Assembly: GCF_003334815.1 (NCBI RefSeq)
Contig: NZ_QOWO01000003.1
Length of the DNA: 64,000 nt
Strand: one strand, 5' to 3'
Source: Escherichia coli
GTDB lineage: Bacteria > Pseudomonadota > Gammaproteobacteria > Enterobacterales > Enterobacteriaceae
Both the position numbers and the translations under genes were made by a program. Positions 26,060-54,265 of this stretch are shown one piece after another (position 1 is the stretch's first letter; each line of letters begins with the position of its first letter). The notes beneath the pieces are model-generated. The model worked only from the letters and a program-made list of their open reading frames with translations, had not been told where the DNA came from and searched no databases.

Positions 26060-28882
26060 TTACAGCATCGGCTTAAGGAAGCGTGCCGTGTGTGATGCTT
26101 CGCACTCCGCGACGGTTTCTGGCGTACCGGAGACGAGGATCTCGCCGCCACCACTGCCGCCTTCTGGTCCCAGGTCGACAATCCAGTCAGCGGTTTTGAT
26201 CACGTCGAGATTGTGCTCAATCACCACAATGGTGTTGCCCTGATCGCGCAGTTTATGCAGTACGTCGAGCAGTTGCTGAATATCGGCGAAGTGCAGACCG
26301 GTGGTCGGCTCGTCGAGAATATACAGCGTCTGCCCGGTGCCGCGTTTTGACAGTTCACGCGCCAGCTTCACGCGCTGGGCTTCACCGCCTGAAAGGGTGG
26401 TTGCGGACTGCCCCAGTCGAATGTACGTCAGGCCAACGTCCATCAACGTTTGCAGCTTACGCGCCAGTGCAGGTACGGCATCAAAGAACTCACGCGCCTC
26501 TTCGATGGTCATATCCAGCACTTCGTGGATGGTTTTGCCTTTGTACTTAATCTCCAGCGTTTCACGGTTATAGCGTTTACCTTTGCACTGGTCGCACGGC
26601 ACGTAGATATCCGGCAGGAAGTGCATCTCCACTTTGATCACGCCATCGCCCTGACAGGCCTCGCAGCGTCCGCCACGAACGTTAAAGCTGAAACGTCCCG
26701 GCGTATAGCCGCGCGCACGGGATTCCGGTACGCCCGCAAACAGTTCGCGCACAGGCGTAAACACGCCGGTATAGGTCGCCGGGTTAGAACGTGGAGTACG
26801 ACCAATTGGGCTTTGGTCGATATCGATCACTTTATCGAAATGCTCCAGCCCCTGAATATCGCGATACGGTGCTGGTTCGGCGATGGTCGCCCCATTCAAC
26901 TGGCGTTGGGCAATCGGGAACAGTGTGTCGTTAATCAGCGTCGATTTACCGGAACCTGAAACCCCGGTGATGCAGGTAAACAGACCCACCGGCAGCGTCA
27001 GCGTCACGTCCTTCAGGTTGTTGCCGCGTGCGCCTGTCAGCTTCAGCACTTTTTCCGGATTCGCCGGAACGCGTTTCTTCGGCACTTCAATCTTGCGTTT
27101 GCCGCTCATGTACTGCCCGGTCAACGACTCCGGCACCGCCATAATCGCTTCCAGCGGACCTTCTGCGACCACTTCACCGCCGTGAACACCTGCGCCCGGG
27201 CCAATGTCGATCACATGGTCAGCGGCGCGAATTGCGTCTTCGTCGTGCTCCACCACAATCACGGTATTACCGAGATCGCGCAGATGGATAAGCGTACCCA
27301 ACAGGCGCTCGTTATCACGCTGGTGCAGGCCGATAGACGGCTCGTCCAGCACGTACATAACGCCAACCAGGCCCGCACCAATCTGGCTCGCCAGACGGAT
27401 ACGCTGTGCTTCACCGCCAGAAAGCGTTTCTGCCGAGCGGGAAAGCGTCAGGTAATTCAGGCCGACGTTAACGAGGAATTTCAGACGATCGCCGATCTCT
27501 TTAAGGATTTTTTCTGCAATCTTCGCCCGCTGACCTGCGAGTTTGAGATTGTTGAAGAATTCCATCGCATGACCAATGCTCATGTCGGAGATAGCAGGCA
27601 GCGGCGTATTCTCGACATACACGTGGCGCGCTTCCCGACGCAGACGCGTCCCTTCGCAGCTGGCGCACGGACGATTACTGATAAACTTGGCTAATTCTTC
27701 GCGTACCGCGCTGGATTCCGTCTCTTTATAGCGGCGCTCCATATTATGCAGCACGCCTTCGAACGGATGACGACGAATGGAGGTATCGCCACGATCGTTC
27801 ATGTATTTGAATTCAATGTTTTCTTTGCCAGAACCGTACAACACCACTTTATGCACGTTCGCGCTCAGGCTGCCCCACGGCGCTTCGACGTCGAACTTAT
27901 AGTGATCTGCCAGCGATTTCAGCATCTGGAAATAATAGAAGTTGCGGCGATCCCAGCCACGGATCGCACCACCAGCCAGCGACAGTTCCGGATTCTGGAT
28001 CACTCGATCAGGATCGAAATATTGCTGTACGCCAAGGCCGTCGCAGGTCGGGCAGGCCCCCGCCGGGTTGTTAAACGAAAACAGTCGCGGCTCCAGTTCA
28101 CGCATACTGTAGCCGCAAATTGGGCAGGCGAAGTTGGCGGAGAACAGCAGCTCTTCCGCTTTCGGGTCGTCCATATCCGCCACTACCGCGGTACCACCGG
28201 AAAGCTCCAGCGCGGTTTCAAATGACTCGGCAAGACGTTGGGTAAGATCGTCACGCACCTTGAAGCGATCAACCACCACTTCAATGGTATGTTTCTTTTG
28301 CAGTTCCAGTTTTGGCGGATCGGAAAGATCGCAGACTTCGCCATCAATACGAGCACGGATGTAGCCCTGGCTTGCCAGGTTCTCCAGCGTTTTGGTGTGT
28401 TCGCCTTTGCGCTCTTTAATGATTGGCGCGAGTAGCATCAGACGCTTGCCTTCCGGCTGCGACAGCACGTTATCCACCATCTGGCTGACGGTTTGCGCCG
28501 CCAGCGGGACGTCGTGGTCCGGACAGCGCGGCTCGCCAACGCGGGCGAATAACAAACGCAAATAGTCGTGGATTTCGGTGATTGTCCCCACCGTAGAACG
28601 CGGGTTATGAGACGTCGATTTCTGCTCAATTGAGATGGCAGGAGAAAGCCCCTCAATATGATCGACGTCCGGCTTTTCCATCAGTGACAGAAACTGCCGC
28701 GCGTAGGCGGAAAGGGATTCAACGTAACGGCGCTGCCCTTCGGCATATAAGGTGTCGAAAGCGAGCGAGGATTTGCCAGAACCCGAAAGCCCGGTCACGA
28801 CAATGAGCTTGTCGCGGGGGATAACGAGGTTGATGTTTTTGAGATTATGGGTGCGGGCGCCCCGAACTTCGATCTTATCCAT
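26060..28882 (-). CDS. uvrA: Excinuclease ABC subunit A UvrA (940 aa)
   Basis: [64 protein letters not shown]...; two ABC ATPase modules, zinc-finger Cys pairs. Confidence 0.98.
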
Positions 28883-28967
28883 TCACCTTTCCCGGATTAA
28901 ACGCTTTTTTGCCCGGTGGCATGGTGCTACCGGCGATCACAAACGGTTAATTATGACACAAATTGAC

Positions 28968-28983
28968 CTGAATGAATATACAG
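28968..28983. promoter_or_regulatory. LexA (SOS) box shared by the divergent uvrA and ssb promoters
   Basis: Plus strand ctgaatgaatatacag = reverse complement CTGTATATTCATTCAG (CTGT-N8-ACAG), between uvrA start (28882) and ssb start (29136). Confidence 0.8.
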
Positions 28984-29135
28984 TATTGGAATGCATTACC
29001 CGGAGTGTTGTGTAACAATGTCTGGCCAGGTTTGTTTCCCGGAACCGAGGTCACAACATAGTAAAAGCGCTATTGGTAATGGTACAATCGCGCGTTTACA
29101 CTTATTCAGAACGATTTTTTTCAGGAGACACGAAC

Positions 29136-29672
29136 ATGGCCAGCAGAGGCGTAAACAAGGTTATTCTCGTTGGTAATCTGGGTCAGGACCCGGAAGTACG
29201 CTACATGCCAAATGGTGGCGCAGTTGCCAACATTACGCTGGCTACTTCCGAATCCTGGCGTGATAAAGCGACCGGCGAGATGAAAGAACAGACTGAATGG
29301 CACCGCGTTGTGCTGTTCGGCAAACTGGCAGAAGTGGCGAGCGAATATCTGCGTAAAGGTTCTCAGGTTTATATCGAAGGTCAGCTGCGTACCCGTAAAT
29401 GGACCGATCAATCCGGTCAGGATCGCTACACCACAGAAGTCGTGGTGAACGTTGGCGGCACCATGCAGATGCTGGGTGGTCGTCAGGGTGGTGGCGCTCC
29501 GGCAGGTGGCAATATCGGTGGTGGTCAGCCGCAGGGCGGTTGGGGTCAGCCTCAGCAGCCGCAGGGTGGCAATCAGTTCAGCGGCGGCGCGCAGTCTCGC
29601 CCGCAGCAGTCCGCTCCGGCAGCGCCGTCTAACGAGCCGCCGATGGACTTTGATGATGACATTCCGTTCTGA
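29136..29672 (+). CDS. ssb: Single-stranded DNA-binding protein SSB (178 aa)
   Basis: [89 protein letters not shown]...; Gly/Gln-rich linker and acidic tip DFDDDIPF. Confidence 0.97.
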
Positions 29673-32479: not shown

Positions 32480-32944
32480 ATGGAAAAGAAATTACCCCGC
32501 ATTAAAGCGCTGCTAACCCCCGGCGAAGTGGCGAAACGCAGCGGTGTGGCGGTATCGGCGCTGCATTTCTATGAAAGTAAAGGGTTGATTACCAGTATCC
32601 GTAACAGCGGCAATCAGCGGCGATATAAACGTGATGTGTTGCGATATGTTGCAATTATCAAAATTGCTCAGCGTATTGGCATTCCGCTGGCGACCATTGG
32701 TGAAGCGTTTGGCGTGTTGCCCGAAGGGCATACGTTAAGTGCGAAAGAGTGGAAACAGCTTTCGTCCCAATGGCGAGAAGAGTTGGATCGGCGCATTCAT
32801 ACCTTAGTGGCGCTGCGTGACGAACTGGACGGATGTATTGGTTGTGGCTGCCTTTCGCGCAGTGATTGCCCGTTGCGTAACCCGGGCGACCGCTTAGGAG
32901 AAGAAGGTACCGGCGCACGCTTGCTGGAAGATGAACAAAACTAA
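32480..32944 (+). CDS. soxR: Redox-sensing MerR-family regulator SoxR (154 aa)
   Basis: [70 protein letters not shown]...; C-terminal [2Fe-2S] motif [12 protein letters not shown]. Confidence 0.97.
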
Positions 32945-33080
32945 AGCGCCACAAGGGCGCTTTAGTTTGTTTTCCGGTCTTTGTCTTTCTCTCTATCCCG
33001 CTGGTACACAGGAGGGTTTCCCCCGACGTCAACACACCTCATTCGAGCACGTGGTGGAGGTTCCGGTTGGTGTTGATGCT
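32938..33080 (-). ncRNA. ryjA: Possible small RNA RyjA (recalled from literature as lying between soxR and yjcD; boundaries approximate)
   Basis: Not verifiable from sequence alone: the 545-bp soxR-ghxP gap is far larger than a simple promoter needs and the soxR terminator hairpin is also a good terminator on the minus strand. Strand and ends are from memory. Confidence 0.25.
32942..32975. terminator. Bidirectional hairpin terminator at the soxR 3' end
   Basis: taaagcgccacaagggcgcttta flanked by tttgtttt on the plus strand and ttttgtt on the minus strand. Confidence 0.55.
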
Positions 33081-52117: not shown

Positions 52118-54265
52118 TTACGCCAGTGCCGCTTCGCGCAGGCGAGTTTTCAACTTGTTGTACTCGTCAATCACGTACTGCTCGGCGGCGCGCTGATCGG
52201 CGATCGGCTCGACGCGAACGGCGCAGTATTTGTACTCCGGCGTTTTCGTAATCGGGCTTAAGTTTTCAGTAACCAGCTCGTTACAGGCACCAATCCACCA
52301 CTGGTAGGTCATGTAAATCGCCCCTTTGTTCGGACGATCGCTGACCTGCGCACGGGTGATAATTTTGCCTTTACGCGAGTGCACCCAAACCAATGCCTCA
52401 TCTTCAATACCCAGACGTTTGGCGTCTTCGGTATTGATTTGTGCGTAGCCAGGTTCATCAGCCAGCGCCGCCAGTGCCGCACAGTTACCGGTCATCGAAC
52501 GGCAAGAGTAGTGACCAACTTCACGCACCGTTGACAGTACCATCGGGTACTCGTCGGTGAGTTTGTCGATTGGCGCTACCCAGTCGCAGGTGAAGAACTG
52601 CGCCAGACCGTTCGGGGTATCAAACTTCTCTTTAAACAGATAAGAAGTCCCCTGATCGGCATCTGAAGTATCGCGGCAAGGCCACTGAATGAAGCCCAGT
52701 TCGCCCATTTTCTCGTAAGTCGCACCGTAGAAATCCGGGCACAGATGACGCAACTCATCCCAGATCTCCTGGGTGTTGTTGTAGTGCATCGGATAACCCA
52801 TACGGGTGGCGATTTCACTGATGATTTGCCAGTCCGTTTTCAGATCCCATTTCGGTTCAACCGCCTTGAAGAAACGCTGGAAGCCACGGTCAGCCGCAGT
52901 AAACACGCCTTCATGCTCGCCCCACGACGTTGACGGTAAAATAACATCCGCCGCCGACGCGGTTTTGGTCATAAAGATGTCCTGAACGATAACCAGTTCC
53001 AGATCTTCAAAGGCTTTACGTACTGCCGACAGCTCCGCGTCAGTTTGTAGCGGATCTTCGCCCATAATGTACGCGGCACGCACTTCGCCATGCGCTGCGC
53101 GGTGCGGCAGCTCGCTGATGCGATAGCCGGTATGCGCTGGCAGGCTTTCCACGCCCCAGGCTTTGGCGAATTTCTCGCGGTTAGCCGGATCTTTCACGTA
53201 CTGGTATCCCGGATACGTATCCGGCAGCGCGCCCATATCGCAGGCACCCTGAACGTTGTTCTGACCACGAACCGGGTTAACACCCGCATGCGGCTTACCG
53301 AGGTTACCGGTCAGCATCGCGAGGCTGGTCAGAGAACGCACGGTTTCCACGCCCTGGTAGAACTGGGTTACACCCATGCCCCACAGGATGGCGGCGCTTT
53401 TCGCCTGGGCATACATCCGTGCCGCCTGACGAATCTCACTGGCGCTGACGCCGGTGATATCTTCAACCGACTCCGGCGTGTAGCCTTCAACGATTTTACG
53501 ATACTCTTCAAAGCCTTCTGTACGTGAAGCGACGAACGCTTTGTCGTACAGATTTTCTTCAATAATGACATGGCCCATCGCATTCAACAGCGCGATGTTC
53601 GAGCCGTTTTTCAGTGCAATGTGCATGTCAGCAATGCGCGCGGTTTCAATTTTGCGCGGATCGCAGACGATAATTTTCGCCCCGTTACGTTTAGCGTTAA
53701 TTACGTGATTCGCCACGATTGGGTGGGAATCCGCCGGGTTGTACCCGAAAACGAACACTAAATCGGTATTATCAATTTCGTTAATAGCATTGCTCATTGC
53801 GCCATTACCGACCGATTGGTGCAGACCTGCAACCGATGGGCCGTGTCAGACACGAGCGCAGCAGTCAACGTTATTGGTACCAATAACGGCGCGCGCAAAT
53901 TTTTGCATTACATAGTTGGTTTCGTTACCCGTACCACGCGAGGAGCCGGTCGTCTGGATGGCATCCGGACCGTACTTCTCTTTGATGGCGCTCAGGCGCT
54001 CGGCAACGTAATTCAGTGCCTCATCCCAGGAAACAGGTTCGAGTTTGCCGCCACGCTGGCGACGGATCATGGGGGTTTTCAGGCGCGGGGTCAGGATCTG
54101 GGTATCGTTAATGAAGTCCCAGCCATAATAACCCTTCAGACACAGGGTACCCTGGTTGGTTTTCCCCTGCGCTGCCTCCGCCCGGACGATTTTGCCGTTA
54201 TCGACGACCAGGTTGATTTTGCAACCTGATGCGCAATAGGGGCAAACCGTGACGACTTTTTTCAT
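52118..54265 (-). CDS. fdhF: Formate dehydrogenase H selenoprotein FdhF (715 aa with in-frame TGA = selenocysteine at codon 140)
   Basis: Track ORFs 53846..54265 (MKKVVTVCPYCASGCKINLVVDNGK...NVDCCARV) and 52118..53797 (MSNAINEIDNTDLVFVFGYNP...) are in the same frame, separated only by TGA (complement 53846..53848). Read-through gives ...CARV-U-HGPSVAGLHQSVGNGAMSNAINE... Confidence 0.95.
53798..53845 (-). other. Bacterial SECIS stem-loop immediately 3' of the fdhF UGA codon
   Basis: Minus-strand sequence after TGA: cacggcccatcggttgcaggtctgcaccaatcggtcggtaatggc, with stem ggttgcagg / cctgcacc-like pairing around a small apical loop. Confidence 0.8.

What the first reader, a model, noticed from the sequence alone, without database searches (positions are those of the whole stretch)
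28968..28983. Single LexA box shared by divergent uvrA and ssb
One CTGT-N8-ACAG operator (CTGTATATTCATTCAG on the minus strand) lies in the 253-bp gap between uvrA and ssb, so one repressor site can gate both a repair gene and the SSB promoter. Known biology, correctly recoverable from sequence.
Basis: partly seen in the sequence, partly recalled or inferred. Interest (0 to 1): 0.2.

Follow-up and report, generated by a model that had tools for sequence, protein, structure and literature searches.

The report
Known LexA operator between uvrA and ssb
This is the textbook E. coli SOS box in the gap between the repair gene uvrA and the single-strand-binding gene ssb; it is real, conserved and already well described, and it controls uvrA firmly but ssb only partly.

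Summary
The window is E. coli chromosome. uvrA (26060-28882, minus strand) and ssb (29136-29672, plus strand) diverge across a 253-bp gap. That gap holds exactly one LexA-type site, the 20-mer 28966-28985 (TACTGTATATTCATTCAGGT on the uvrA strand).

A weight matrix built from other LexA sites ranks this site first in 64 kb at 19.9 bits. The lexA gene's own two operators rank second and third, and everything else is at chance level (11.1 bits or less).

The box and the uvrA extended -10 are the best-conserved blocks of the gap across 37 Enterobacterales sequences. Of 51 species with adjacent divergent uvrA and ssb, 50 have exactly one such site.

The box is CTGT-N8-TCAG, not a perfect match. ssb has three promoters, and LexA reaches only the distal one. 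Published data accordingly show uvrA induced about 4-fold and LexA-dependent, while ssb responds weakly and inconsistently. In Vibrio, where the genes are separated, the box stays with uvrA. This is already known biology.

The parts
28966..28985 (.). LexA operator (SOS box). The 20-mer reads TACTGTATATTCATTCAGGT on the uvrA (minus) strand. One arm is a perfect consensus half-site and the other is imperfect.
   Evidence: PWM 19.9 bits, rank 1 in the window. The half-site is unique in the window. Conservation is 0.91 over 37 Enterobacterales sequences. Published heterology index is 6.98.
28968..28983 (-).
   Evidence: Read directly. Conservation 0.92.
26060..28882 (-). uvrA, excinuclease ABC subunit A, 940 aa.
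   Evidence: ORF. RefSeq annotation of identical E. coli DNA.
29136..29672 (+). ssb, single-stranded DNA-binding protein, 178 aa.
   Evidence: ORF and ATG. Annotation. Translation ends in DDDIPF.
28950..28958 (-). uvrA promoter extended -10 (TGTCATAAT). This is inferred from sequence, not from a mapped start site read here.
   Evidence: Hexamer scan. It is the most conserved block of the gap at 0.96.
28971..28980 (-). uvrA -35 zone. Spacers of 15-19 bp from the -10 place it inside the LexA box.
   Evidence: Geometry. The literature states that the box overlaps the uvrA -35.
28953..28992 (+). Zone of the distal, LexA-repressible ssb promoter. The hexamers are ambiguous: either TTGACC 28964-28969 with TGGAAT 28987-28992, or ATGACA 28953-28958 with TATACA 28977-28982. 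Either pairing puts the box inside the core promoter.
   Evidence: Sequence reading. Weak cross-species conservation of TTG (0.1-0.4) and of TGGAAT (0.59). That a distal LexA-controlled promoter exists comes from the literature.
29080..29088 (+). Candidate LexA-independent proximal ssb promoter: extended -10 TGGTACAAT, 95 bp beyond the box.
   Evidence: The conservation pattern T9 G9 n T9 A* n A9 A7 T* is what an extended -10 would show.
29097..29102 (+). Second conserved -10-like hexamer, TACACT, with TTGGTA at 29073-29078. It is a candidate for another proximal ssb promoter.
   Evidence: Conservation 0.83.
29123..29127 (+). ssb Shine-Dalgarno sequence AGGAG.
   Evidence: The surrounding 29122-29129 block is 0.91 conserved.
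12126..12734 (+). lexA, the gene for the repressor that binds the box. It lies 16 kb away in the same window.
   Evidence: ORF and translation. Annotation.
12079..12119 (+). The lexA gene's own two operators, 12079-12098 and 12100-12119. They were used here as held-out positive controls.
   Evidence: PWM 19.8 and 18.3 bits, ranks 2 and 3. Sequence.

Best explanation
The 20-bp site at 28966-28985 is the known E. coli LexA operator of the uvrA-ssb intergenic region.

In undamaged cells a LexA dimer sits on it. The dimer covers the -35 zone of the uvrA promoter and the core of the distal ssb promoter, which fire back-to-back in opposite directions, so RNA polymerase cannot use either. After DNA damage, RecA bound to single-stranded DNA triggers LexA self-cleavage, the site empties, and both promoters fire.

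The two outputs are unequal. uvrA has only this promoter region and responds clearly, about 4-fold. ssb also has two proximal promoters 95 bp or more beyond the box that LexA cannot reach. Its basal level is therefore high and independent of LexA, and its induction is small.

Basis for each step:
- Shown here: the site exists, it is unique in the gap, it scores like validated operators, and it is conserved.
- Inferred from sequence: the exact promoter hexamers.
- Taken from the literature: LexA binding, the three ssb promoters and the expression data.
For: - The sequence is as quoted and the gap is 253 bp.
- The window is E. coli; all 5426 complete genomes hold the region.
- The PWM gives 19.9 bits, top of the window. 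The held-out lexA operators are next at 19.8 and 18.3, then scores drop to 11.1, which equals the chance maximum.
- The consensus half-site occurs once against 0.03 expected.
- No second site exists in the gap.
- The uvrA extended -10 places the -35 zone inside the box.
- Of 51 species with adjacent divergent uvrA and ssb, 50 have exactly one site of 12 bits or more in the gap; the remaining one scores 11.6.
- The box (0.91) and the uvrA -10 (0.96) are the best-conserved blocks in a gap averaging 0.56.
- The box is unchanged in three divergent E. coli variants, including one with about 20 other changes in the gap.
- lexA is present in the same window.
- Literature: the shared box has HI 6.98, ssb has three promoters of which only the distal is LexA-repressible, and the box overlaps the uvrA -35. 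ssb is induced by UV and gamma rays in a LexA-dependent way by RT-qPCR. In Salmonella uvrA rises 11.2-fold and ssb 9.6-fold. After AZT, uvrA rises 3.9-fold and ssb 1.5-fold. Log2 fold changes reach 3.2 for uvrA and 1.8 for ssb.
Against: - I could not read the primary promoter-mapping papers. Brandsma 1983 and 1985 and Meyer and Laine 1990 are not held, and a TSS supplement was truncated. Promoter positions therefore rest on hexamer inference plus a secondary source.
- The default promoter scan found nothing in the region. Candidates appeared only with relaxed or extended -10 criteria.
- The distal ssb promoter hexamers are ambiguous and poorly conserved.
- Several studies found no LexA-dependent change in ssb mRNA or SSB protein.
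- The PWM training sites were recalled from memory. My heterology index came out at 8.5, against the published 6.98 and 6.2.
Confidence: 0.95

Rival explanations
1. The box is effectively a uvrA-only operator. ssb merely happens to lie next door, and its LexA control is physiologically negligible, so 'shared' is nominal.
For: - After AZT, ssb rose 1.5-fold with lexA dependence of 1.0, against 3.9-fold and 4.4-fold for uvrA.
- Three microarray studies and several protein assays saw no ssb induction.
- SSB protein did not rise significantly.
- In eight Vibrio loci where about 2 kb separates the genes, a box of 21-26 bits stays 75-155 nt from the uvrA ATG, and ssb has nothing above 6.5 bits within 300 bp.
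- The distal ssb promoter hexamers are poorly conserved and polymorphic within E. coli.
Against: - RT-qPCR shows LexA-dependent ssb induction by UV and gamma rays, and overexpression in an SOS-constitutive mutant.
- ssb rises 9.6-fold in Salmonella.
- ssb log2 fold change reaches 1.8.
- Brandsma's gene fusions showed SOS regulation, as reported.
- The adjacent divergent arrangement with one box holds in 50 of 51 species spanning Enterobacterales, Pasteurellales, Photobacterium and Tolumonas.
Confidence: 0.15
2. The site is a chance match to a loose palindrome with no regulatory role.
For: The 16-mer pattern with one mismatch occurs at the chance rate, 18 hits against 16.8 expected.
Against: - The full-site PWM score was reached in only 1 of 300 simulated windows.
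- The half-site occurs once against 0.03 expected.
- The site is conserved across about 50 species while the flanking intergenic DNA diverges.
- Published work documents LexA control.
Confidence: 0.01
3. The conserved block is held mainly by overlapping promoter elements or another regulator rather than by LexA. The review's Figure 1 marks an ArcA site in this region.
For: - The box overlaps the uvrA -35 zone and the candidate ssb distal promoter.
- The non-consensus T of TCAG is invariant in 37 sequences, while the consensus-side T/G varies.
- An ArcA site is mentioned in this intergenic region.
Against: - The conserved positions are the LexA-critical CTG and CAG triplets with their 10-bp spacing.
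- In Pasteurellales and Vibrio the surrounding promoter sequence differs, yet a LexA-type palindrome persists.
- This explanation adds to LexA control rather than replacing it.
Confidence: 0.04

Closest known systems
The E. coli K-12 uvrA/ssb SOS box (Brandsma et al. 1983 and 1985; Fernandez de Henestrosa et al. 2000, HI 6.98)
   Same: It is the same locus and the same 20-mer. A search for TACTGTATATTCATTCAGGT finds it only in a published plasmid sequence (pJMuvrA-PAmCherry-mCI) that carries this uvrA upstream fragment. The gene pair is the same, and the box starts 170 nt upstream of the ssb ATG (29136 - 28966), as published.
   Different: Nothing material. The window is identical to many E. 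coli strains, including MG1655, over the core.
The Salmonella enterica uvrA/ssb shared LexA box (PMC8072944)
   Same: It is an orthologous single box shared by divergent uvrA and ssb, with HI 6.99, and both genes are damage-induced.
   Different: ssb induction is reported to be larger there (9.6-fold) than in most E. coli studies.
The lexA gene's own tandem operators (window 12079-12119)
   Same: They follow the same motif, have comparable PWM scores (19.8 and 18.3 against 19.9), and bind the same repressor.
   Different: They are two adjacent boxes serving one promoter in one direction. The uvrA/ssb site is one box serving two divergent promoters.
The Vibrio uvrA LexA box
   Same: It is a LexA-type palindrome upstream of uvrA, about 75 nt from the ATG in most of the eight loci and up to 155 nt in one.
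   Different: It is not shared. A LuxR-family gene and a galU-like gene lie between ssb and uvrA. The box is nearer to consensus at 21-26 bits, and ssb has no box.

Membership tests
Gammaproteobacterial LexA operator (SOS box) | Invariant CTG-N10-CAG palindromic core | tested here: met
   CTG TATATTCATT CAG on the minus strand at 28968-28983. The rule is as quoted in PMC11228462.
Gammaproteobacterial LexA operator (SOS box) | Overall similarity to TACTG(TA)5CAGTA at the level of validated operators | tested here: met
   15 of 20 positions match. The PWM gives 19.9 bits, inside the training range of 13.3-28.6 and 8.8 bits above the next non-operator hit. Published HI values are 6.98 and 6.2. 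Caveat: the training sites were recalled from memory.
Gammaproteobacterial LexA operator (SOS box) | Overlaps core promoter elements of the regulated gene | tested here: met
   For uvrA, the extended -10 at 28958-28950 puts the -35 zone at 28971-28980, inside the box, in agreement. For the distal ssb promoter the hexamers are ambiguous, so this is inconclusive from sequence alone.
Gammaproteobacterial LexA operator (SOS box) | The cognate repressor is encoded in the genome | tested here: met
   lexA, 202 aa, at 12126-12734 in the same window.
Gammaproteobacterial LexA operator (SOS box) | Conserved at the orthologous position in related genomes | tested here: met
   Exactly one site of 12 bits or more in 50 of 51 adjacent uvrA-ssb gaps. 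Conservation is 0.91 against 0.56 for the whole gap.
Gammaproteobacterial LexA operator (SOS box) | Direct LexA binding (footprint, gel shift or ChIP) | not testable with these tools
   Reported in primary papers that I could not open. They are cited through PMC9505508.
SOS regulon member genes | LexA- and RecA-dependent induction by DNA damage | not testable with these tools
   Literature only. uvrA responds consistently: 3.9-fold with 4.4-fold lexA dependence and log2 fold change up to 3.2. ssb is inconsistent: 1.5-fold and 1.0-fold, positive by RT-qPCR, and 9.6-fold in Salmonella.
Single operator shared by divergent promoters | Only one operator in the gap, and both divergent core promoters within its reach | tested here: inconclusive
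   A single site is confirmed and overlap with uvrA is supported. Overlap with ssb holds only for the distal of three promoters according to the literature. The proximal candidates lie 95 bp or more away. No mapped 5' ends were available.

The most novel reading that the evidence does not exclude
The imperfect arm of the operator (TCAG in place of ACAG) may be a selected feature rather than drift. That non-consensus base is invariant in 37 Enterobacterales sequences, while a consensus-side base varies freely between CTGT and CTGG. It could set an intermediate LexA affinity, or it could double as part of the back-to-back promoters. Separately, the SOS link of ssb may be an evolutionary by-product of lying next to uvrA, because the box follows uvrA and ssb gains no box of its own where the genes are separated in Vibrio.
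Probability: 0.3. Interest if true: 0.2.

Novelty: already known. Interest (0 to 1): 0.08.

Why it matters
It matters little as a discovery, since this operator has been in the literature since 1983 and is in every list of SOS boxes.

It is useful as a calibration case in three ways:
- 'One box, two genes' hides a real asymmetry, with firm control of uvrA and leaky control of ssb. That asymmetry explains decades of conflicting reports on whether ssb is inducible.

Tried and rejected
- The bare CTGT-N8-ACAG scan with one mismatch is uninformative: 18 hits against 16.8 expected.
- The default sigma-70 and terminator scan of 28700-29300 found nothing. A relaxed scan allowing an extended -10 was needed.
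- I tried to read the primary mapping papers, Brandsma 1985 (PMC321852) and Meyer and Laine 1990 (PMC372786). Neither is held.
- I tried genome-wide TSS tables (Kim 2012, PMC3415461). The supplement was cut when stored, and there were no hits for ssb, uvrA, b4058 or b4059.
- Literature searches for 'uvrA promoter' and 'uvrAp' returned nothing.
- The eLife paper PMC6363387 had no relevant text.
- My Lewis-style heterology index from recalled sites came out at 8.5, not the published 6.98 or 6.2. I therefore rely on the published values and on rank and chance statistics.
- I considered TTGACC (28964-28969) as the -35 of the distal ssb promoter. Its TTG is poorly conserved (0.1-0.4) and polymorphic in E. 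coli (TTAACC), so I do not commit to it.
- Rfam found no RNA family in the gap.

Full report
**What is at the coordinates**

Window 28968-28983 reads CTGAATGAATATACAG on the plus strand. To the left is a 940-aa ORF on the minus strand, 26060-28882. To the right an ORF starts at the ATG at 29136 and runs to 29672. An 801-bp query across the junction matches all 5426 complete E. coli genomes, many at 100%. RefSeq annotates the two genes there as uvrA and ssb. The gap 28883-29135 is 253 bp, as stated.

One detail needs correcting. It does satisfy the invariant CTG-N10-CAG and matches 15 of 20 positions of TACTG(TA)5CAGTA (consensus as quoted). One arm, TACTGTATAT, is a perfect consensus half-site. 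The other arm, ATTCAGGT, is imperfect.

**Is it more than chance?**

The loose pattern is not. CTGT-N8-ACAG with one mismatch occurs 18 times in the window against 16.8 +/- 4.2 in shuffles.

The full site is. I built a symmetric 20-bp weight matrix from 20 other E. coli LexA operators. These were recalled from published tables, and I left out this site and both lexA-gene operators.
- The 20-mer 28966-28985 scores 19.9 bits, the best in 64 kb.
- The two held-out lexA operators (12079-12098 and 12100-12119) come second and third at 19.8 and 18.3 bits.
- The next hit is 11.1 bits, equal to the mean maximum of simulated windows (11.3 +/- 2.5).
- Only 1 of 300 simulations reached 19.9 bits.

A test that does not depend on my recalled sites agrees. 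The perfect half-site TACTGTATAT occurs once in the window, at 28976-28985 on the minus strand, against 0.03 expected. Within the gap the second-best score is 0.7 bits, so 'single' is right. The repressor gene lexA sits in the same window at 12126-12734, directly behind its two operators.

**Geometry relative to promoters**

The default promoter scan found nothing. A relaxed scan that allows extended -10 elements found the following.
- On the uvrA strand, TGTCATAAT lies at 28958-28950. Spacers of 15-19 bp place the -35 zone at 28971-28980, inside the box.
- The box centre (28975.5) is 93.5 nt from the uvrA ATG and 160.5 nt from the ssb ATG.
- The outer edge of the box (28966) is 170 nt from the ssb ATG, which matches the published '-170'.
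- On the ssb strand the clearest elements are an extended -10, TGGTACAAT, at 29080-29088 and a TACACT at 29097-29102. Both are 95 bp or more beyond the box.
- The distal ssb promoter must lie around the box, but its hexamers are ambiguous. They could be TTGACC/TGGAAT or ATGACA/TATACA. Either pairing puts the box inside the core promoter.

These assignments are inferred. I could not open the primary mapping papers or a usable TSS table.

**Comparative evidence**

A scan of one genome per species with the UvrA N-terminus returned 80 loci.
- In 51 loci ssb lies adjacent and divergent, with a gap of 143-533 bp. These are 40 Enterobacterales, 8 Pasteurellales, 2 Photobacterium and 1 Tolumonas.
- In 50 of the 51 the gap holds exactly one site of 12 bits or more (14.3-22.6 bits). 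The exception scores 11.6 bits.
- These species are related, so the counts are not independent events.

An alignment of 36 Enterobacterales gaps plus the window gives these conservation values:

| Element | Conservation |
|---|---|
| uvrA extended -10 | 0.96 |
| LexA 20-mer | 0.91 |
| ssb ribosome-binding block | 0.91 |
| TACACT | 0.83 |
| TACAAT extended -10 | 0.79 |
| Whole gap | 0.56 |
| Just beyond the box (28993-29010) | 0.27 |

Within E. coli the 71-bp core is identical in 4360 of 5426 genomes. In three variant strains the box is untouched. A recurrent change is G28965A, one base outside the 20-mer. A divergent lineage with about 20 changes in the gap has none in the box or in the uvrA -10.

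In eight Vibrio loci a LuxR-family gene and a galU-like gene separate ssb from uvrA. There a strong box (21-26 bits) stays 75-155 nt from the uvrA ATG. ssb has nothing above 6.5 bits within 300 bp.

**What the literature says**

- PMC9505508 describes this very site. [quoted passage not shown]
- That paper also recounts decades of conflicting results on ssb inducibility. By RT-qPCR it shows LexA-dependent ssb induction after UV and gamma rays, but equal ssb expression in wild-type and lexA3 cells during normal growth.
- RNA-seq after AZT gave uvrA 3.9-fold with 4.4-fold lexA dependence, and ssb 1.5-fold with 1.0-fold.
- A multi-omics time course gave log2 fold changes up to 3.2 for uvrA and 1.8 for ssb, with no significant rise in SSB protein.
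- In Salmonella the orthologous shared box (HI 6.99) goes with 11.2-fold induction of uvrA and 9.6-fold of ssb.

**Mechanism**

In undamaged cells a LexA dimer on 28966-28985 blocks RNA polymerase at the uvrA promoter and at the distal ssb promoter, which are arranged back-to-back. RecA-stimulated LexA self-cleavage frees both.

uvrA depends on this promoter region and responds clearly. ssb is also served by two proximal promoters out of LexA's reach, so its basal level is high and its induction small.

The basis for each step differs:
- Site, score, uniqueness and conservation are shown here.
- Promoter hexamers are inferred.
- LexA binding, promoter number and expression are taken from the literature.

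The main rival is that the box is effectively uvrA-only and the ssb link is physiologically negligible. That reading has some support: the AZT data, the flat protein levels, the Vibrio arrangement and the weak conservation of the distal ssb promoter. It conflicts with the RT-qPCR, Salmonella and time-course data, so I give it about 0.15. A chance match is excluded.

**Verdict**

This is already known, so interest is low.

The only mildly open points are two. First, whether the invariant non-consensus base in the imperfect arm is selected to tune affinity or serves a promoter. Second, whether the SOS link of ssb is a by-product of adjacency.

Noticed in passing
window 12079-12119 and 12126-14132: The repressor's own locus lies 16 kb from the operator. 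Two tandem LexA boxes (19.8 and 18.3 bits) sit directly upstream of lexA (12126-12734), and dinF follows. They served as held-out positive controls.
   Followed up: yes
window 28965: A recurrent E. coli polymorphism, G to A (TTGACC to TTAACC), lies one base outside the LexA 20-mer, in a candidate -35 of the distal ssb promoter. It was seen in 2 of 3 variant strains sampled. In all, 1066 of 5426 genomes differ somewhere in the 71-bp core.
   Followed up: partly
window 28971 (minus-strand T of TCAG) versus 28980: The non-consensus base that makes the arm TCAG instead of ACAG is invariant in 37 Enterobacterales sequences. The consensus-side T of CTGT is only about 0.5 conserved, alternating between CTGT and CTGG. 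Pasteurellales have ACAG and Vibrio has CCAG at the equivalent place.
   Followed up: partly
L059 702-2363 (similar in L046, L056, L057, L062, L067, L069, L070): In Vibrio, a 222-aa LuxR-family-like ORF and a 290-aa galU-like ORF lie between ssb and uvrA on the uvrA strand. The LexA box sits between the galU-like ORF and uvrA, and ssb has no box. I named the ORFs from reading the sequence and did not run a family search.
   Followed up: partly
L045, L058, L060, L061, L066, L071, L078, L079, L081: Pseudoalteromonas, Alteromonas, Shewanella and Glaciecola have a gap of about 1.5 kb or more between ssb and uvrA. None has an E. coli-type LexA site above about 5 bits within 300 bp of either gene.
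   Followed up: no
L034 (contig JAATFR010000166.1, 2882 bp): A contig labelled as a Hyphomicrobiales MAG encodes a UvrA N-terminus 94% identical to E. coli's. It is probably a mis-binned Enterobacterales contig.
   Followed up: no
window 32937-33077 (-), 53799-53853 (-), and 106, 4335, 40315, 50921-51330 (+): Rfam hits elsewhere in the window are the sraL sRNA, a SECIS element, and seven naRNA4 (REP-derived) copies, four of them clustered at 50921-51330. None lies in the uvrA-ssb gap.
   Followed up: no
window 42488-42730: Three weak LexA-PWM hits (6.0-11.1 bits) cluster in the AT-rich acs-nrfA intergenic region. They are at chance level and are probably a composition effect.
   Followed up: no
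window 28941-28946: A short conserved block (AAACGG on the plus strand, 0.5-0.9 conserved) lies just downstream of the uvrA -10, around the expected uvrA transcription start. Its function was not examined.
   Followed up: no
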